Below, piece by piece: positions 30,001 to 39,000 of a DNA stretch of 64,000 nucleotides. Positions within the stretch are counted from its first letter, which is position 1. Each line of letters begins with the position of its first letter. The stretch is taken from positions 49,322-113,321 of the forward strand of contig JAQBGU010000084.1 in assembly GCA_032128375.1 (NCBI GenBank), given 5' to 3'. A program made the position numbers. Source of the DNA: Deltaproteobacteria bacterium (GTDB lineage Bacteria > Myxococcota_A > UBA9160 > SMWR01).

Positions 30001-33000
30001 CGGGGCCGCCCATCAACCTATCGATCGCGAGTCGGGCGGCATCCCGGCCACTGTGGCCGTCTGCCACGGCAACGACTACACCGGCGGGCCCGATCGCAAA
30101 CGCCGCGGCGTCTTCATTCGGGTCGGTGTGTTCGTAGGTCTTGCGGGCGCCACCTTTCGACAGTGCGATTGCCGCGTTGCCCTGTGCGGTCGCCGATACG
30201 GCACCGATCGCATCGGACGCTTCCCCGTGTAGTTTCGCCTGGAAGATCTCGGCCGATCCAGCGTAGCCTTTTGCGGTCACGAATCTCTCTCGAATGGGAT
30301 TCGCCGCAGTATAGGTCCCGGCGGCCCCACGGCTTGATCTCATCGAGTCTTCCCCCCGGGGTTGCGACATTCGCGCGCGAGCCGGACACTCGCTGACCTT
30401 TGCAATTCGGCACGAAGCCAGAAACATGAGGACGCGGTGAGCGGCCAATTTCGCCTGAACGACGATGAGAAGCGCGCCTATGCGGACGATGGATTCTTCA
30501 TCCGCGAACGACTCTTCGACACGGAAGAAATCGAAGATCTACGCGACGCGGTCGAGCAATGCGCGGCCAAGGCGACCGCCGCGGTGTGCCCGGGCGTCGA
30601 CGAATACGAAATCGACGGCAATCGCTATTGCGAAGCTTCGGGATCGACGATCCAGTTCGAGCACTCCTCGGGCTCCAACAGCGTTCGTGTCATCGAACCG
30701 TTCCATCATCTCGACGAGCGCATCGACCGAACAATCGACGATCCGCGCTTTGTCGACCCGGCGCGCGACCTGACGGGTGCCGAGCGAATTTCGCTGTTCA
30801 CAGCGAAGCTCAATCTAAAGCGGCCGCGCGAAGGGTCACGCTTTCGCTGGCACCAGGATTCCCCGTACTGGGCGCATGCCTTTGCGGAAGTGGAGCGTCT
30901 CCCCAACTTGATGCTGGCGCTCGACGATTCCAACGAAGCCAACGGCTGCCTGCGCATCATTCGCGGCAGCCATCGCCGCGGTATGTTGCCGGGCCTCGCA
31001 GGGCAGGGGACCCTTGGTCCTTTGTTCACCGACCCGAAGCATTTCGACGAGTCGCAGCAGGTACCGGCTGTGATGCCTGCAGGCAGCATGTTGTTCTTCC
31101 ACCCGTCGACGGTGCACGGCTCACTACCGAACCGCTCGGATCAACCCCGTCGAGCGTTCCTGTTCACCTATCAGCCGGGTGCGCGGCGGCTGTTCAAAGT
31201 GGACGTGAAGCGCGAAGCCGGCTGACCGCAGCATCCTGCGTGGTCTGCTAGACCTCGAACCCGTACAACCGCGCGGCGTTGCCGCATAGGATCTTGCGTT
31301 GTGTCTCACCCGATATGCCTGTCAGCTGCGGGCCGAGCAACTCGAGCGAGTCTGGCCAAGTGCCGTCGGGATGCGGGAAATCGGACCCCCACATGACGGT
31401 GTCTTCGCCGATGCGATCGAGGTTCGCGAGACCGACCGCGTCGACCTGGAAGGTCGCAAACATCTGGCCGCGCCAGTACTCGCTCGGCGGCTTAGAGATC
31501 AGGTCCTTGAACTGGTCCTCCCATTCGAAATCGAGCCGTTCGAGCGCGTAGGGAAGCCAACCGATTCCCGACTCGCCGATCACGACCTTGAGTTCGTTGT
31601 GGCGCTCGAGAGCGCCGCCGAAGATCACCGCCGACAGCACGCTCATCATCGGGATTTGAAAGGAGCTGATGTGCGTGGCCAGCCACGGGCGGTAGTTCTT
31701 TGGCTCCGTGAGCCAGCGCCGGTCGACGGCGGGACCGACCGTATGGATGTGGACCGGAACACCGGTGTCCTGCGATGCCTGCCAGATGGGCTCCCACTCT
31801 TTGTGCCACAGCGGCGTCATGTCGTGGGTGAGACCGAGTTCGACGCCCTTCAGTCCCAGCTTCGCGCAGCGGCGAAACTCGTCCGCGGAGGCTTCGGGAT
31901 CGCCCGGTGCCAGACACCCGATACCGGCGAAGCGCCCCGGCACACTGCGGCAAAAATCGCTGAGCCAATCGTTGTAGATACGTATGACGACGGCCGCGAC
32001 TTCCGGGTCGTTCAAGCGTCCGGCGGCGCCGAGAATGCCGTAGACGACTTCACCTGCGACTCCGTCGAGGTCCTGATCGATCGCGCGCAGCGTGGGATCG
32101 GCCGGGCGCATGATGCCATTGGCCTGGTCGCGGTACAGGCCCTGCTCTGCCATTCGGTCGGAGCGGTGGATTTCTCCCGGAACATAGGGCCGCCCTGCGG
32201 AACCCATTCCTCCGTGGAGTCCAAGGGATTCCCCCTGGTGGGACCGCCAAACTCGGCTGCCGGAAGTTTCTACCACCACGCGTGGCATCCGGTTGCGCAA
32301 CGCCGCGGGTGCGTTGTCGATCCACAGTGCTTCGGGTAGTAACGGAAAGTCGATATGGCCATCGGCCGAAATCAACGGGTGATCCATGGCAGTCTCCTCA
32401 ATCCATCAGTGCGTCAGCCAGTCGAACTTCTGCGGCTTTCGCTGTGCGGATGGGTCGATCAGAATATTGACGATGTTCGGCATCGGATCGTTCAGGGCCT
32501 CTTTCAAAGTCGGTCCGAGTTCCTTGACGCTGGTGACCAGGTAGCCGCGGCCGCCGAATGCTTCGATCACCTTCTCGTAGCGGGCGTCGATGGTGTAGAC
32601 GAACGGCGGCGGGTTCGCGGGGTCATACTCGCTCAGGCCACCACCGATGCCGTTGTTGTTGATGATGATGAACGTGATCGGCAACCGGAAGCGGCATGCG
32701 GTTTCGACCTCCATGCCGCTGAAGCCAAACGCCGAGTCGCCTTCGACACAAACCACCTTTTCATGCGGGTGGGCGACGGCCGCAGCGATCGCGAAGCCCA
32801 GCCCAACGCCCATGGTCCCGTAGGTGCCGGCATCCAGTCGGTGCCGTGCTTCGAAGTTCGGAAGCACGGTTCGTCCGATATCCATCGTGTTGGCGCCTTC
32901 GCTGCAGATGATGGCGTCACGTGGCAGCAAATCACGGATTTCGCGCAGCACCCTGTAGTAGCCCATGGGCTCCGAGTCGTCGTTCAGCATCGCCTCGACT

Positions 33001-36000: not shown

Positions 36001-39000
36001 AGGCGTGAACATCTACCCCGCTGAAATCGATGCAGCATTGCTGATGCACGCGGCCGTTGCGGATGTCGCATGCGTTGGGGTCCCCAACGAGGAACGCGGA
36101 GAGGAGGTGAAGGCCGTCGTGCAACTCGCCGACGGTTTTGTCGAATCAGCCCAACTGGCCGACGAATTGATCCAGTTCTGCCAAGCACACCTGGCAAAAT
36201 TCAAGTGCCCGCGAAGCGTGGATTTCGACCGCAGACTACCCCGCAGCGACGCCGGAAAGGTGCTGCGCAAGGTTGTCCGCGATCGCTATTGGTAAACCGC
36301 CTCGCAAGAATGAAAATGGCATCATGGAAGGGCACAGCCAAAGAGGAGGCCTTCGATGGGACAACTCGACGACAAAATCGCAATCGTGACTGGAGGTGGC
36401 CGGGGAATCGGCCGCGGCATCGTATTTGCTCTCGCCCAGGCCGGCGCGGACATTGTCATCGCAGACGTGGATCTGGTGAGTGCAGAGCAGACCGCGAAGG
36501 AGGTCGAGGCGCGGGGACGTCAGGTGTTGGTGGTACGGCTCGACGTCACGAATGAAAACTCGGTCCGCGAAGGCACGGCTTCGGCGCTGGAACGCTTCGG
36601 TCGGGTCGACATTCTGATCAACAACGCTGGGGTCGTGCAGGACCACGTTGGCGCCGCCGTCGACCAGGACGATTTCGATCGCTGCTTCCAGGTGAATCTG
36701 CGCGGCATCTGGACGATGACTTCGGCGCTCGCGCCGCATCTGCGTGAGCGGAAGTACGGCAAGATCGTGAATATTGCTTCGATTGCCGGCCGCAAGGGGG
36801 GCAGTGGCCTCGCGCCGTACTGCGCATCCAAGGCGGGAGCGATCAGCCTGACGCAAGTCGCTGGCGGCCGAGTTGGGACCGGATGGAATCAACGTCGATG
36901 CGATCTGCCCGGGCCTGCTGTGGACACCCATGTGGGAAAAACTCGAGGGCATGATTCGCAATACCGACGACGCCGAGGTTGTCGACCAGCGCGCGGCCTT
37001 CGATGCCTTCATCCAGAAGAACTGTCCCCTACGGCGCGAACAGACACCTGAGGACATCGGCCACGCCGTGGTCTTTCTGGTATCGGATGCGGCACGCAAC
37101 ATCACGGGCCAGTCGCTCAACGTCGACGGCGGCATCGAGATGAACTGATTCGAGCACTGCTCCCGAGTGTGCCGTCTTCGTGGGGCGTGAGTCGCCGCTC
37201 ACGCGCCAACTGCGGACGAGAGCGCCTTCTCGAACAATCGAACCCAGTAGCCGTGCTCCTTTGCGCGGTCGAGTTCGCGGAAACCGAGATCTCGGTAGTA
37301 GGCGCGCAGTGCTTGGCTGCCGTCCCAGCAGTCCAGTCGCACGAGCGAGCGATCGGCGTCGAGCGCCCATTGCTGCGCGCGTTCAACGATTCTGTGACCG
37401 TGATTTCGACCGCCAATCGACCTGGCGACTGCGAGTTTTCGAAGGTAGACAGCCGGCTCCGGGTGGTCGTCCCACGCTGGGTAGGACGCGCGTCCGACAA
37501 TGCAGCCACCCAGCACCACGTGGCCACCGCGCAAAACGATCAGGTCGCCCTCATCGATCCAGACGCGAAAGTTCTCGATTTGGGCGCGGTTCGAGCCAGG
37601 CGGCCACTGCGCGATACCGCGCTCGAATAGCCACGTGCCGACCTCTTCGAGAACTTCGACGAAATTCGCCAGGTCCCCCGGCCCCGCGATCTCGAGCGTC
37701 AGTTCCACGCTGTGCCTCGATCCAGGCTCTCCCCAATCGCGTGCGCATGCATATAGACAGATATTTACAAAGACAGTTGGAAAAACATCAAGAAAGTCGC
37801 TCAGATACGCTCCCGTAAACCCGATAAGAACGGATTCTGGCAAGTTGATGTCGTGACAAGAACGCCAGGATCCGGAATTGAAGAAACGGCCGCGTCGAAC
37901 GTCCAATGTGCCGATGCCAAGGAGGTCCGATATGAGATGGAACAACGAGGGTACAATTGTCTTCGCAAGCGTCGTCGCTGCGGGTCTCTTGTCAGCGGCG
38001 TGTACAACGGCCCCCTATGAGCCGGACGTCTACGCCCCACCCGGAGGACCGGGCTACTACGACCCCGGCTATTCTGGCCCCGGCTATTCCGACCCCGGCT
38101 ATTCCGACCCCAACTACGCCGCCGCCGCCCAATACCAAGAGCCCACGTATTCCGTCGGCGTCTACACGGTCGTTCCACAGGTACCGCTGCACTCGCGCGC
38201 TACGTGGTACTTCGGCGTCCACCCCCATCCCGACAGTCATCACGAGGGGCGATTCTGTAGCCAGAGCGGCGCCCATAGCCACGGCTACGATCCGTACCGG
38301 AATCACCGTTATGAGTTCCACGATGGCTACTACTATTGGCTGGGCGATCCCGTGGCCTTCCATGTGCAGTCAGTTTCTTATGCGTACTTTGGTCACCATC
38401 CCCACCCGCACTACTTCGGCAGTTATTGCTACATGAATGGCCGACACCACCACACGTACTCGCCGCGCAGCAGAAACTCCTATAACTATGTCCGCGGGGT
38501 GTTCCACTTCAACGGTGTCTTCGGACGCGACTACCATGAGCATCGCAAGGAATACAACGAAAACGGATGGCGATACGCTCGTCGTGAGCGCGGCTACAAC
38601 GAGCACCACGATTGGAAGCAATACCGCGAGCATGGAACGCCCAATCACCAGGACCGTGATCGACGCGAAGATCGCAACCAGCGCGCCGACGAACTGGAGC
38701 GACGCCATGAGCAGCAGCAGATGGGTCGCCGCAATCGCGAAGAAGCCCATCGGCAAGCGATACAGGAGCGCGATCGCCAGCAGGCAGCTCAGCGCGAGGA
38801 CGACGAGCGCCGGAAGCAGGCAGCCCACCAGGCGAAAGAAGAACGGCGCCACCAGCAGATAGTCGAGCGCGAGACGGAGCTAAACCGCAAGCAGGAGGCT
38901 GCAACACGAGAGGTAGAGGAGCGACGGCGCCAAAAGGCGGAGCAACGAGACAGGGTCGAGGTCACTCGGCAGCAGGCAGAGCAGCGCGAGAGGGACGAGC

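What a model noticed while it worked through the whole genome (the two positions that open the first line are those of the whole stretch)
30437..37051. Peroxisome-like fatty acid alpha-oxidation module (PhyH - HACL - acyl-CoA ligase) with animal-like SCPx and ALDH3A2
A PhyH-family 2-oxoglutarate dioxygenase (g01788), a 2-hydroxyacyl-CoA lyase 52.5% identical to human HACL1 (g01790) and a divergent acyl-CoA ligase + SDR (g01791-92) lie together; elsewhere the genome has 21 PhyH paralogues (three 46-49% identical to animal phytanoyl-CoA dioxygenase), an ALDH3A2-like fatty aldehyde dehydrogenase (51.8%) and an SCPx-type thiolase 70.5% identical to rat SCP2/SCPx. I read this as a bacterial version of the peroxisomal phytanic-acid pathway (activation, 2-hydroxylation, C1 cleavage to formyl-CoA, aldehyde oxidation, pristanoyl-CoA thiolysis) used to eat chlorophyll-derived phytol and other 3-methyl-branched lipids in the sea. 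It would give bacterial HACL enzyme [...]
Evidence so far: Gene order and best Swiss-Prot hits: g01788 PhyH, g01789 amidohydrolase, g01790 TPP enzyme = HACL1 human 52.5% over 562 aa, g01791 AMP-ligase, g01792 SDR. Genes whose Swiss-Prot hits (3 to 5) are all eukaryotic include g04231 SCPx 70.5%/393 aa, g01790, g02693 ALDH3A2 51.8%/448 aa, PhyH g00954 49.4%, g02201 47.0%, g04912 45.6%. 21 genes carry Pfam PhyH. Several CoA_transf_3 (AMACR family) genes are present. Paper search for HACL + phytanoyl-CoA + bacterial + alpha-oxidation: 13 papers, the 6 listed all on animals.
(Added by a program. Inside this text positions count along the whole contig: contig position 49,322 is position 1 of the stretch shown here. 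"Call 12" and the like, gene names such as g00115 and contig names such as C1 are that model's own, and its searches are not shown. The text may have been shortened before it was handed on; [...] marks where a part breaks off. The agent that wrote the report below was given it as the finding of a first reader that could run no searches.)

Follow-up and report, generated by a model that had tools for sequence, protein, structure and literature searches.

The report
Bacterial HACL lyase beside two oxygenases
A marine myxobacterium carries a genuine 2-hydroxyacyl-CoA lyase of an already characterised bacterial type, paired in an operon with a mislabelled iron oxygenase, but the evidence that this is a phytanic-acid pathway like the one in our peroxisomes is weak.

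Summary
All five genes are present: PhyH-family dioxygenase (30437-31225 +), "amidohydrolase" (31248-32387 -), TPP enzyme (32406-34058 -), acyl-CoA ligase (34676-36295 +) and SDR (36356-37148 +, frameshifted).

The TPP enzyme is a 2-hydroxyacyl-CoA lyase of the HACL/S clade, not an oxalyl-CoA decarboxylase. It scores 850 bits against the crystallised, assayed TbHACL/S, versus 421-483 bits against true OXCs. It has Phe-Gln where OXC has Tyr-Glu.

This is not new. Bacterial HACLs have been characterised since 2019. PhyH+HACL alpha-oxidation was already proposed for SAR202, and a PhyH-based phytol pathway for Verrucomicrobia and SAR86.

The gene linkage is weak:
- The neighbouring PhyH is not the PAHX orthologue; that gene lies on another contig.
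- Its orthologues occur across the order without HACL next door (0 of 19 loci).
- A PhyH lies within 6 kb of HACL in 1 of 80 other loci.
- The usual HACL neighbour is a family III CoA-transferase (19 of 80).
- Ligase and SDR are missing from the sister genome's locus.

One new point: HACL's operon partner carries the complete signature of PtmU3/DitZ-type dinuclear oxygenases (ARO). It is therefore a candidate hydroxylase, not a hydrolase.

Best reading: one-carbon shortening of an unknown hindered acyl-CoA. Phytanate is unproven.

The parts
29435..30448 (-). PP2C-type phosphatase gene, divergent from PhyH. This is the older neighbour of PhyH and not part of the proposed pathway.
   Evidence: PF13672 at 1.2e-10. 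A PP2C homologue lies beside the PhyH orthologue in 4 of 19 other genomes.
30437..31225 (+). PhyH-family Fe(II)/2-oxoglutarate dioxygenase. It has H139-x-D141, H227 and R238, and forms its own transcription unit, convergent on the HACL operon.
   Evidence: PF05721 at 122.5 bits. Motif residues by inspection. Best solved relatives score only 66 bits; human PAHX scores 43 bits. Orthologues (E<=1e-40) occur in 74 of 400 sampled genomes of the phylum, all in the same class and in nearly every genome of the order.
31248..32387 (-). ARO-type (amidohydrolase-related dinuclear oxygenase) protein, PtmU3/DitZ-like, the second gene of the HACL operon. Predicted metal ligands are D9-x-H11, H215, E272 and D336-x-P-H339-x-D341.
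   Evidence: PF04909. Best solved relatives are PtmU3 at 134.8 bits and DitZ at 97.4 bits, versus at most 67 bits for decarboxylases. Both ARO signature motifs defined in PMC13154177 are present. The ligand columns are invariant in 10 aligned sequences, down to 22% identity. The AF2 model (pLDDT 78.5) best matches PtmU3 (E 1.3e-23) and DitZ.
32406..34058 (-). [quoted passage not shown] Key residues are E50, F112-Q113, and lid residues R540, K541, Q543 and W547.
   Evidence: Three TPP domains. 849.7 bits against TbHACL/S 8VZD over residues 1-549 without gaps, and 692 bits against RuHACL 6XN8. True OXCs score 421-483 bits. HACL-type Phe-Gln dyad and loss of the OXC Tyr loop, compared with E. coli Oxc.
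32388..32405 (-). 18-bp spacer between the HACL stop and the ARO start, containing GAGGAG 6 nt before the ATG. This indicates co-transcription.
   Evidence: Sequence read. No terminator-like site was reported there.
34059..34675 (.). 617-bp divergent intergenic region between the HACL operon and the ligase gene.
   Evidence: The two small ORFs here (33934-34311 +, 34227-34601 -) have no Pfam match. No sigma-70-like site was found.
34676..36295 (+). AMP-forming acyl-CoA ligase of unknown specificity, within a strain-variable segment.
   Evidence: PF00501 and PF13193. Best NCBIfam match is FadD4 at 449 bits against a cut-off of 850. Best solved relative is FadD13 at 190 bits. Window 34078-37852 has no counterpart in the same-genus locus.
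36356..37148 (+). Short-chain dehydrogenase gene interrupted by one frameshift near 36852-36862. This is either a pseudogene or an assembly error.
   Evidence: The N-terminal part matches adh_short_C2 positions 6-156 and the C-terminal part, in another frame, matches positions 157-235.

Best explanation
The core of the locus is a two-gene operon. A HACL/S-clade ThDP enzyme cleaves 2-hydroxyacyl-CoA into formyl-CoA plus an aldehyde or ketone one carbon shorter. It is followed by an ARO-type dinuclear-iron oxygenase that current annotation calls an amidohydrolase.

I propose that the pair shortens a carboxylic acid by one carbon when that acid cannot enter beta-oxidation. The substrate would be branched or otherwise hindered, possibly isoprenoid or alicyclic. 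The proposed steps are:
1. The acid is carried as a CoA ester, made by the neighbouring ligase in this strain, or by one of the genome's many CoA-transferases.
2. It is hydroxylated next to the thioester, by the ARO, by the adjacent PhyH-family dioxygenase, or by both.
3. It is cleaved by HACL.
4. Formyl-CoA is passed on by a family III CoA-transferase.

Shown: the identity of each protein family, HACL-type rather than OXC-type active-site residues, the complete ARO metal-ligand signature, and the operon structure.

Inferred: that the ARO or the PhyH makes the 2-hydroxy substrate, the direction of the reaction, and the substrate. Phytanic acid is possible, but nothing here points to it specifically.
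For: HACL identity:
- 849.7 bits against the assayed and crystallised TbHACL/S, versus 421-483 bits against OXCs.
- E50, Q113, R540, K541, Q543 and W547, named for TbHACL/S in PMC11271303, are all conserved.
- F112-Q113 stands where OXC has Tyr-Glu. This is the difference stated in PMC7154664.
- HACLHs has k_cat below 1 per min on oxalyl-CoA.

Operon: 18-bp gap with GAGGAG. PhyH-ARO-HACL is retained at 81.8% nucleotide identity in the same-genus genome.

ARO:
- D-x-H and D-x-P-H-x-D motifs. PMC13154177 says the latter is found in no characterised PF04909 hydrolase or decarboxylase.
- Ligand columns are invariant.
- PtmU3 and DitZ are the top matches by sequence and by fold.
- PtmU3 is a beta-hydroxylase that accepts CoA-ligated substrates (PMC7782822).

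Surroundings and chance:
- Nearby are a second ARO, a KshA-like Rieske oxygenase, a glyoxalase-fold protein, a ligase, a CoA-transferase, a BVMO-like gene and an enoyl-CoA hydratase.
- Random-placement chance of PhyH and Amidohydro_2 both flanking a gene is 0.13%.
- ARO-type genes lie within 6 kb of HACL in 5 of 80 other loci.
Against: - The pairing is confined to one genus. ARO orthologues (57-74% identity) in 8 other genomes have HACL within 1.5 kb in 0 of 8.
- HACL/S orthologues in 4 other relatives (G003, G035, G014, G017) have none of the window's neighbours.
- ARO is adjacent to HACL in 0 of 80 loci.
- The commonest HACL neighbour is a CoA-transferase (19 of 80 within 300 bp, including both closest relatives L001 and L060). 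This suggests HACL often takes ready-made 2-hydroxy acids and needs no hydroxylase.
- The known AROs hydroxylate beta or remote carbons, not C2.
- This genome has 33 Amidohydro_2, 21 PhyH and 45 CoA_transf_3 matches, so such neighbours are cheap here.
- The closest assayed homologue was tested on short aldehydes and is described as promiscuous, so it gives no hint of a long branched substrate.
- No biochemical or expression data exist for this organism.
Confidence: 0.45

Rival explanations
1. HACL works on ready-made 2-hydroxyacyl-CoAs. These could derive from 2-hydroxy fatty acids, lactate-type acids or 2-hydroxyisobutyrate-type acids. A family III CoA-transferase would transfer CoA from formyl-CoA to the next acid, in an Frc/Oxc-like cycle. 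On this view PhyH, ARO, ligase and SDR merely share a catabolic island and do not feed HACL.
For: - CoA_transf_3 lies within 300 bp of HACL in 19 of 80 loci and within 6 kb in 23 of 80, including the two closest relatives.
- The genome's second OXC/HACL-family gene (C154) is followed directly by a CoA_transf_3.
- The window holds a CoA_transf_3 at 19605-20810.
- Neighbour turnover is high.
- Many HACL loci sit among housekeeping genes.
Against: - No CoA-transferase lies beside this HACL; the nearest is 11.6 kb away.
- The 18-bp coupled operon with an oxygenase and its retention in the sister genome argue for a shared task.
- The random-placement chance of the flanking pair is low.
Confidence: 0.3
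2. One reading: a dedicated bacterial copy of the peroxisomal phytanic-acid pathway. The ligase makes phytanoyl-CoA, the adjacent PhyH 2-hydroxylates it, and HACL releases pristanal plus formyl-CoA. The purpose would be feeding on chlorophyll-derived phytol.
For: - HACL-type lyase.
- The PhyH has an intact HxD...H...R set.
- A ligase is next door.
- The genome has a PAHX-like PhyH scoring 232 bits against human PAHX.
- An RPE65-type carotenoid oxygenase lies 15 kb away.
- The same pathway was proposed from genomes of SAR202 (PMC5395668), and a PhyH-based version from Verrucomicrobia and SAR86.
Against: - The adjacent PhyH scores 43 bits against PAHX, and its best solved relatives at 65-66 bits include a leucine hydroxylase.
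- Its orthologues are order-wide and lack HACL next door in 0 of 19 loci.
- A PhyH lies near HACL in 1 of 80 loci.
- The PAHX-like gene lies on another contig, in an operon with an alpha/beta hydrolase, an ARO and a CMD protein.
- Its presence does not follow HACL: 4 of 5 versus 17 of 35. Also, 11 of 21 PAHX-positive relatives have no OXC/HACL-family match at E<=1e-100.
- Ligase and SDR are strain-variable, and the SDR is broken.
- No ALDH is in the window.
Confidence: 0.12
3. The TPP enzyme is an oxalyl-CoA decarboxylase, as NCBIfam names it, serving oxalate catabolism.
For: NF006721 'oxalyl-CoA decarboxylase' scores 586.3 bits, above its cut-off of 557. The protein belongs to the same superfamily and is 43% identical to E. 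coli Oxc.
Against: - TIGR03254 is not reached: 560 against a cut-off of 739.4.
- OXC structures score 421-483 bits, versus 632-850 for HACL/S structures.
- Tyr-Glu is replaced by Phe-Gln. The two-residue loop carrying E. coli Tyr478 is absent, and Ser550 aligns with Pro542. Mapping these residues to MeOXC Tyr497 and Ser568 is my inference from numbering offsets.
- No frc, oxalate transporter or oxalate-CoA ligase lies beside it, unlike E. coli frc-oxc-yfdV-yfdE.
- The deposited names of the assayed HACL/S enzymes were also 'oxalyl-CoA decarboxylase'.
Confidence: 0.04
4. The enzyme runs in the synthase direction in vivo, condensing formyl-CoA with a carbonyl compound. The role would be one-carbon assimilation or making a 2-hydroxy acid.
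For: HACL/S enzymes catalyse the reverse reaction in vitro.
Against: - No formate-activating or C1-pathway genes were seen around it.
- The surroundings are oxidative and catabolic.
- Reported K_M values for carbonyl substrates are high.
Confidence: 0.03

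Closest known systems
[quoted passage not shown]
   Same: - Same length (550 aa), aligned over residues 1-549 without gaps at 849.7 bits. By eye about 72% of aligned positions are identical.
- E50, Q113 and the lid residues R540, K541, Q543 and W547 are conserved.
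- Same three-domain ThDP architecture.
   Different: - This protein comes from a marine Myxococcota MAG and is untested.
- It has F28 where TbHACL/S has I28.
- Its gene context (an ARO oxygenase downstream) was not seen among the 80 relatives' loci.
- The published work treats these enzymes as biocatalysts; in the passages I read it does not address their native role.
Peroxisomal alpha-oxidation (PAHX/PHYH, HACL1, fatty aldehyde dehydrogenase, acyl-CoA synthetase)
   Same: A HACL-type lyase and a PhyH-family 2OG dioxygenase are present, together with a CoA ligase. The genome also holds a PAHX-like gene.
   Different: - The adjacent PhyH is not the PAHX orthologue.
- The genes are not co-inherited.
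- No ALDH is in the window.
- An extra ARO oxygenase is the operon partner.
- The substrate is unknown.
Oxalyl-CoA decarboxylase / formyl-CoA transferase (E. coli oxc-frc, O. formigenes, M. extorquens)
   Same: Same ThDP superfamily, at 43% identity to E. coli Oxc. Formyl-CoA is the product. CoA_transf_3 is the commonest neighbour of HACL/S genes elsewhere.
   Different: - Phe-Gln replaces Tyr-Glu.
- The Tyr-bearing loop is lacking.
- The C-terminal lid differs.
- There is no frc beside it in this window.
ARO superfamily: PtmU3 (platensimycin/platencin biosynthesis), DitZ (diterpenoid hydroxylase), AibH2, SfbO
   Same: - PF04909 TIM-barrel fold with D-x-H ... H ... E ... D-x-P-H-x-D ligands.
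- PtmU3 and DitZ are the top matches by sequence and fold.
- The residue at the gamma-4 position is non-aromatic (Pro340), as in the diiron class.
- PtmU3 acts on CoA esters.
   Different: - Only 28% identity to PtmU3.
- No Rieske ferredoxin is adjacent. The paper says this is usual for the diiron class.
- The partner gene is a HACL. None of the 15 top-ranked of 48 papers from search combined ARO and HACL terms.
- The substrate and the position hydroxylated are unknown.
Actinobacterial 2-hydroxyisobutyryl-CoA lyase pathway (AcHACL/HICL with 2-HIBA-CoA ligase)
   Same: A bacterial catabolic route in which a CoA ligase and a ThDP lyase, encoded together, split a tertiary 2-hydroxyacyl-CoA into a ketone and formyl-CoA.
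   Different: A different, distant subfamily: 198 bits against 7PT1 and NF058623 at 260 bits against a cut-off of 600. According to PMC11271303 it lacks the ADP site.

Membership tests
HACL/S subfamily of the OXC/HACL ThDP enzymes | Three ThDP-enzyme domains (N, central, C) and the cofactor-activating Glu | tested here: met
   PF02776, PF00205 and PF02775 all match. E50 aligns with the Glu50/54 named in PMC11271303.
HACL/S subfamily of the OXC/HACL ThDP enzymes | Phe-Gln in the active-site floor where OXC has Tyr-Glu (PMC7154664) | tested here: met
   F112-Q113 in the window protein and in 5 relatives; Y118-E119 in E. coli Oxc.
HACL/S subfamily of the OXC/HACL ThDP enzymes | C-terminal lid residues that contact acyl-CoA in TbHACL/S (R540, K541, Q543, W547) | tested here: met
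   All four are identical at the same numbers.
HACL/S subfamily of the OXC/HACL ThDP enzymes | Closer to assayed HACL/S enzymes than to OXC or HICL | tested here: met
   632-850 bits against five HACL/S structures and 692 bits against RuHACL, versus 421-483 bits for OXC and 198 bits for AcHACL.
HACL/S subfamily of the OXC/HACL ThDP enzymes | Cleaves 2-hydroxyacyl-CoA to formyl-CoA plus a carbonyl compound | not testable with these tools
   Needs an enzyme assay.
Oxalyl-CoA decarboxylase (equivalog) | Score above the curated equivalog cut-offs | tested here: inconclusive
   NF006721 scores 586.3 and passes its cut-off of 557. TIGR03254 scores 560 and fails its cut-off of 739.4.
Oxalyl-CoA decarboxylase (equivalog) | Tyr-Glu dyad, plus the Tyr and Ser that hold the protonating water (MeOXC Tyr497, Ser568) | tested here: not met
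   F-Q stands in place of Y-E. E. coli Tyr478 falls in a 2-residue insertion that is absent here, and Ser550 aligns with Pro542. The residue mapping between E. coli and MeOXC is inferred from numbering offsets.
Oxalyl-CoA decarboxylase (equivalog) | Linked frc / oxalate transporter genes | tested here: not met
   None within the cluster. The E. coli layout is shown.
Peroxisome-type phytanic-acid alpha-oxidation module | A phytanoyl-CoA 2-hydroxylase (PAHX) orthologue as the hydroxylase | tested here: not met
   The window PhyH scores 43 bits against 2A1X. The PAHX-like copy (232 bits) lies on contig C49.
Peroxisome-type phytanic-acid alpha-oxidation module | Hydroxylase and lyase inherited or placed together across genomes | tested here: not met
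   - PhyH lies within 6 kb of HACL in 1 of 80 loci.
- HACL lies beside the PhyH orthologue in 0 of 19 loci.
- The PAHX-like gene is present in 4 of 5 HACL-bearing relatives and in 17 of 35 HACL-lacking relatives.
Peroxisome-type phytanic-acid alpha-oxidation module | Fatty aldehyde dehydrogenase for the C(n-1) aldehyde | tested here: not met
No Aldedh-family match among the ORFs of the 64-kb window that I scanned.
Peroxisome-type phytanic-acid alpha-oxidation module | Activity on phytanoyl-CoA / 2-hydroxyphytanoyl-CoA | not testable with these tools
   Needs assays.
ARO (amidohydrolase-related dinuclear oxygenase) superfamily | PF04909 fold with an N-terminal D-x-H motif | tested here: met
   PF04909 at 128.8 bits. 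D9-G-H11 is present, and D9 and H11 are invariant in 10 sequences.
ARO (amidohydrolase-related dinuclear oxygenase) superfamily | C-terminal D-x-P-H-x-D/E motif (PMC13154177) | tested here: met
   D336-F-P-H339-P-D341 is present. D336, P338 and H339 are invariant.
ARO (amidohydrolase-related dinuclear oxygenase) superfamily | Bridging or mid-barrel His and Glu ligands (AibH2 His211, Glu265) | tested here: inconclusive
   H215 and E272 are invariant and sit at matching spacing. I did not align them residue by residue to a solved ARO.
ARO (amidohydrolase-related dinuclear oxygenase) superfamily | Closest structures are AROs rather than decarboxylases or hydrolases | tested here: met
   By sequence: PtmU3 134.8 and DitZ 97.4 bits versus at most 67 bits. 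By fold: PtmU3 E 1.3e-23 and DitZ 7.9e-22 versus ACMSD 2.8e-16. The loop carrying the C-terminal motif (residues 337-346) has pLDDT below 50 in the model.
ARO (amidohydrolase-related dinuclear oxygenase) superfamily | O2-dependent hydroxylation at a dinuclear Fe/Mn site | not testable with these tools
   Needs metal analysis and an assay.
PhyH family (PF05721) Fe(II)/2OG oxygenases | HxD...H iron triad and the 2OG-binding Arg | tested here: met
   PF05721 at 122.5 bits across the full profile, positions 1-213. H139, D141, H227 and R238 are present, with R at His+11 as I recall for PAHX H264/R275. The PAHX numbering is from memory.

The most novel reading that the evidence does not exclude
The ARO-HACL bicistron is a previously undescribed form of alpha-oxidation. 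A TIM-barrel diiron oxygenase of the PtmU3/DitZ type, rather than a 2-oxoglutarate dioxygenase, would install the hydroxyl group on a hindered acyl-CoA. The substrate would be isoprenoid, alicyclic or alpha/beta-substituted. A bacterial HACL would then remove C1 as formyl-CoA. This would give marine Myxococcota a route into carboxyl-rich recalcitrant organic matter, and would assign a first native role to the biotechnologically used HACL/S enzymes.
Probability: 0.17. Interest if true: 0.65.

Novelty: new member of a known kind. Interest (0 to 1): 0.35.

Why it matters
Bacterial HACL/S enzymes are heavily used for synthetic one-carbon chemistry. In the passages I read, their native role in bacteria is not addressed.

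This locus does not settle that question, but it narrows it in three ways:
- It shows that the textbook PhyH-HACL pairing is not what bacterial genomes conserve. The conserved partner is a family III CoA-transferase.
- It corrects a misleading 'oxalyl-CoA decarboxylase' name and a misleading 'amidohydrolase' name.
- It offers one concrete, testable pair: an ARO oxygenase plus HACL in one operon.

If that pair works together, it would link two enzyme families of current interest and suggest how marine heterotrophs shorten acids that resist beta-oxidation. If it does not, the locus is an ordinary piece of a paralogue-rich catabolic island.

Tried and rejected
1. Paper search for '2-hydroxyacyl-CoA lyase' + 'HACS' + 'bacterial' found 0 papers. 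A looser search found the relevant ones.

2. tblastn of the window's neighbours against 80 HACL loci gave PhyH 0 of 80. Because a single divergent query could miss paralogues, I built an HMM from the genome's 21 PhyH domains. That gave 1 of 80.

3. All-against-all clustering of ORFs near HACL surfaced SDR (19 loci), P450 (10 loci) and Amidohydro_2 (9 loci), but missed the CoA-transferases.
   - A direct Pfam scan of the longest flanking ORFs found CoA_transf_3 in 13 loci. It covered 144 of the 148 ORFs chosen. Four ORFs with out-of-range coordinates, from L028, L049, L050 and L059, were dropped, and one end coordinate was trimmed to the locus length.
   - An HMM built from this genome's copies found CoA_transf_3 in 19 of 80 loci within 300 bp.
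   - Only 50 of the 80 loci have at least 3 kb on both sides, so all these neighbour counts are lower bounds.

4. The promoter and terminator scan was uninformative: 0 promoter-like sites, and 9 terminator-like sites against 6.6 expected.

5. I tested the idea that the genome's second OXC/HACL-family gene (C154) is the true OXC, which would leave g01790 free for HACL work. It was rejected. The C154 gene scores only 367 and 341 bits against the OXC models and also has Phe-Gln.

6. I tried to locate the claimed SCPx-like thiolase. There were 12 Thiolase_C_1 matches and no reference sequence to pick among them, so the claim is left unverified. ALDH3A2 was not searched.

7. The earlier-findings look-up returned two notes on other parts of the genome, neither about this pathway.

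8. Complex prediction, the protein atlas, and the large homology searches (search for homologous proteins, the search of protein representatives) were not used.

Full report
**What is there.** Between 29.4 and 37.9 kb lie the following genes:
- a PP2C phosphatase gene (29435-30448, -)
- a PhyH-family dioxygenase (30437-31225, +)
- an Amidohydro_2 protein (31248-32387, -)
- a three-domain TPP enzyme (32406-34058, -)
- a 617-bp gap
- an AMP-forming acyl-CoA ligase (34676-36295, +)
- an SDR (from 36356, +)
- a GNAT (37199-37945, -)

These are three transcription units. PhyH converges on the pair HACL->Amidohydro_2. That pair is separated by 18 bp carrying GAGGAG six bases before the ATG. Ligase->SDR diverge from HACL.

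The SDR is split by one frameshift near 36852-36862. Profile positions 6-156 are read in one frame and 157-235 in another.

**The TPP enzyme is a HACL, not an OXC.** Evidence from solved structures:
- Against solved structures it scores 849.7 bits on TbHACL/S (8VZD), aligned 1-549 without a gap.
- It scores 837 bits on DhcHACL/S, 740 on ApbHACL/S and 692 on RuHACL (6XN8).
- The three genuine oxalyl-CoA decarboxylases score 421-483 bits, and the actinobacterial 2-hydroxyisobutyryl-CoA lyase scores 198 bits.

PMC11271303 (abstract and passages read) describes these HACL/S proteins as purified, kinetically characterised and crystallised. It names E50/54, Q113 and the lid residues R540, K541, Q543 and W547 of TbHACL/S. 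All are identical here.

PMC7154664 (passages read) states that the active-site floor of OXC and HACL differs only in Tyr133/Glu134 of MeOXC, which become Phe/Gln in human HACL. It also reports that human HACL barely decarboxylates oxalyl-CoA. In my alignment with annotated E. coli Oxc:
- The window protein, four orthologues and the genome's own paralogue all have Phe-Gln where Oxc has Y118-E119.
- All lack the two-residue insertion that carries Oxc Tyr478.
- The window protein has Pro542 where Oxc has Ser550.

Equating these with MeOXC Tyr497 and Ser568 is my inference from numbering offsets.

The NCBIfam name 'oxalyl-CoA decarboxylase' comes from NF006721 (586.3 bits against a cut-off of 557). 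The stricter TIGR03254 is not reached (560 against 739.4). The assayed HACL/S proteins had carried the same database name.

**The 'amidohydrolase' is an oxygenase-type protein.**
- Its best solved relatives are PtmU3 (134.8 bits) and DitZ (97.4 bits). Decarboxylases of the same Pfam family reach at most 67 bits.
- PMC13154177 (passages read) defines the amidohydrolase-related dinuclear oxygenases (AROs) by an N-terminal D-x-H and a C-terminal D-x-P-H-x-D/E motif. It states that the latter occurs in no characterised PF04909 hydrolase or decarboxylase.
- The window protein has D9-G-H11 and D336-F-P-H339-P-D341.
- In an alignment of ten sequences, down to 22% identity, D9, H11, H215, E272, D336, P338 and H339 are invariant. 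Their spacing matches the six ligands listed for AibH2 in PMC7782822.
- An AlphaFold2 model (mean pLDDT 78.5; the motif loop 337-346 is below 50) matches PtmU3 best (E 1.3e-23, TM 0.75/0.80), then DitZ, ahead of ACMSD (2.8e-16).
- PMC7782822 calls PtmU3 a beta-hydroxylase that accepts CoA-ligated substrates.
- The non-aromatic residue at the gamma-4 position (Pro340) fits the diiron class.

**How firm is the linkage?**

From HACL outward. Of at least 565 relatives found in genome contigs, the best 80 loci were kept. Fifty of them have at least 3 kb on both sides. Neighbour counts across the 80 are:
- A PhyH-family ORF within 6 kb in 1 of 80 (L063) and adjacent in 0.
- An ARO-type ORF within 6 kb in 5 of 80 and adjacent in 0.
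- An AMP-ligase within 6 kb in 4 of 80.
- A family III CoA-transferase within 300 bp in 19 of 80 and within 6 kb in 23 of 80. These include both closest relatives, L001 and L060 at 76% identity.
- Many loci flank HACL with housekeeping genes.

Among 40 relatives of the organism:
- HACL/S orthologues (64-90% identity) occur in five.
- The same-genus genome keeps PhyH-ARO-HACL at 81.8% nucleotide identity. Window 34078-37852 (ligase, SDR, GNAT) is replaced there by 1.5 kb of unrelated DNA.
- The other four have none of the window's neighbours.

From the ARO outward. Orthologues of 57-74% identity occur in eight other genomes of the phylum sample, and HACL lies within 1.5 kb in 0 of 8. Their neighbours are alpha/beta hydrolase plus MFS (2), two PhyH genes (1), a coupled CoA-transferase (1), an SDR (1) and others.

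From the PhyH outward.
- Matches at E<=1e-40 occur in 74 of 400 sampled genomes. All are in one class and cover nearly every genome of the order: f1 10/11, f7 8/8, f10 25/25, f12 11/11.
- In the 19 loci fetched, HACL and ARO are present in 0 of 19 and PP2C in 4 of 19.
- Relatives such as G018, G004 and G010 have this PhyH at 65-69% identity but no OXC/HACL-family match at E<=1e-100.

So PhyH beside PP2C is the old arrangement. The ARO-HACL pair arrived next to it in one genus, and the ligase-SDR segment is younger still or was lost in the sister genome.

**Genome-level pathway.** The genome has 21 PhyH matches, 33 Amidohydro_2 matches, of which 21 of the 32 examined carry the ARO C-terminal motif, and 45 CoA_transf_3 matches.
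- One PhyH, on contig C49, scores 232 bits against human PAHX, against 43 bits for the window copy. It sits in an operon with an alpha/beta hydrolase, another ARO (DFPHPD) and a CMD-family protein.
- The PAHX-like gene is present in 21 of 40 relatives. That is 4 of the 5 that have HACL/S and 17 of the 35 that do not.
- Of the 21 PAHX-positive relatives, 11 have no OXC/HACL-family match at E<=1e-100. These genomes are 68-98% complete.
- PhyH genes in this genome lie near Amidohydro_2 genes (4 of 21 within 5 kb; random mean 1.0) and near CoA_transf_3 genes (4 of 21; random mean 0.9) more often than random placement gives.
- Random placement puts both a PhyH within 2 kb and an Amidohydro_2 within 300 bp of a gene in 0.13% of trials.

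The window as a whole is an oxidative catabolic island. It also holds a second ARO, a KshA-like Rieske oxygenase, a glyoxalase-fold protein, two sulfatases, an RPE65-type oxygenase, a CoA-transferase, two luciferase-like monooxygenases, a BVMO-like flavoprotein and an enoyl-CoA hydratase. No aldehyde dehydrogenase was found.

**Reading.**

Shown:
- a HACL/S-type lyase
- an ARO-type oxygenase as its operon partner
- an intact PhyH-family dioxygenase next door in a separate unit
- a strain-variable ligase
- a broken SDR

Inferred: that the operon shortens some hindered acyl-CoA by one carbon after hydroxylation.

The main rival is that HACL takes ready-made 2-hydroxy acids activated by CoA transfer from formyl-CoA. 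This is what the commonest neighbour elsewhere suggests. On that view the oxygenases are merely co-located.

The phytanic-acid reading is not excluded, but it has no specific support. It also loses its main prop, the PhyH adjacency.

**Novelty.**
- Bacterial HACLs have been characterised since Chou et al. 2019, as cited.
- 134 homologues have been screened and ten structures solved.
- Bacterial alpha-oxidation by PhyH plus HACL was proposed from SAR202 genomes (PMC5395668, passages).
- PhyH-based phytol alpha-oxidation was proposed for Verrucomicrobia (bioRxiv 10.1101/324970, passages) and SAR86 (bioRxiv 10.1101/2024.03.17.584874, passage).
- None of the 15 top-ranked of 48 papers combined ARO terms with HACL or formyl-CoA terms. 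I did not see the other 33.
- One search found nothing on HACL in Myxococcota among its 15 listed papers.

The ARO-HACL operon is thus a small new lead inside a known picture.

Noticed in passing
window 36852-36862 (SDR gene 36356-37148, +): A single frameshift splits the SDR. The N-terminal 170 codons and the C-terminal 95 codons lie in different frames, and each matches its half of the adh_short_C2 profile. This is either a pseudogene or a MAG assembly error.
   Followed up: partly
window 39455-42502 (+): A glyoxalase-fold protein (39455-39898), a second ARO-type protein (39911-41110; D15-N-H, DYPHPE) and a KshA-like Rieske oxygenase (41147-42502) form a run. The run is conserved at about 80% nucleotide identity in the same-genus genome. 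It looks like a separate oxygenase cassette of unknown substrate.
   Followed up: partly
G000:C154 (locus L086 7320-19972): A second OXC/HACL-family gene (L086:9958-11601) is 38% identical to the window HACL. It also has Phe-Gln and falls below both OXC cut-offs. A CoA_transf_3 gene follows it directly. Around it are an SCP2-thiolase-like gene, a ChsH2-type OB-fold protein, a MaoC-like dehydratase, a P450, an SDR, an Amidohydro_2 without the ARO motif, and two more CoA-transferases. This paralogue type is more widespread among relatives than the HACL/S type (36-42% matches).
   Followed up: partly
G000:C49 (locus L087 5613-9193, -): The PAHX-like PhyH (232 bits against human PAHX) heads a run of alpha/beta hydrolase, ARO (DGH / DFPHPD; 30% identical to the window ARO) and a CMD-family protein. 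A Zn-ADH and a thioesterase are on the other strand. ARO orthologues elsewhere also sit beside alpha/beta hydrolases (L091, L092) or PhyH genes (L093). A PhyH-ARO-hydrolase association therefore recurs.
   Followed up: partly
whole genome G000: Large paralogue families: 21 PhyH matches, 33 Amidohydro_2 matches (21 of 32 examined carry the ARO motif D-x-P-H-x-D/E), 45 CoA_transf_3 matches (several as two-domain fusions of about 800-940 aa) and 12 Thiolase_C_1 matches.
   Followed up: partly
locus L016 5134-8881: In a 'Deltaproteobacteria' MAG, a TauD-family 2OG dioxygenase, HACL and a CoA_transf_3 lie in a row on one strand. This trio is a cleaner candidate for hydroxylase, lyase and formyl-CoA handling than the window's own arrangement.
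   Followed up: no
loci L062, L063, L064 (upstream of HACL): Three Pseudomonadales/Azotimanducaceae-type MAGs have an ADP-forming (ATP-grasp / Ligase_CoA_2) acyl-CoA synthetase next to HACL. Two of them also have a TRAP transporter DctM subunit on the other side. This suggests uptake and activation of a free acid.
   Followed up: no
window 7283-7642 (+): A 119-aa ORF matches only the C-terminal quarter of the P450 profile (positions 339-432 of 462). It may be the remnant of a broken P450 gene or a mis-called start.
   Followed up: no
window 15042-16751 (+) and 54089-55849 (-): An RPE65-type carotenoid-cleavage oxygenase lies 15 kb upstream of the cluster, and a DDE transposase lies 20 kb downstream.
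   Followed up: no
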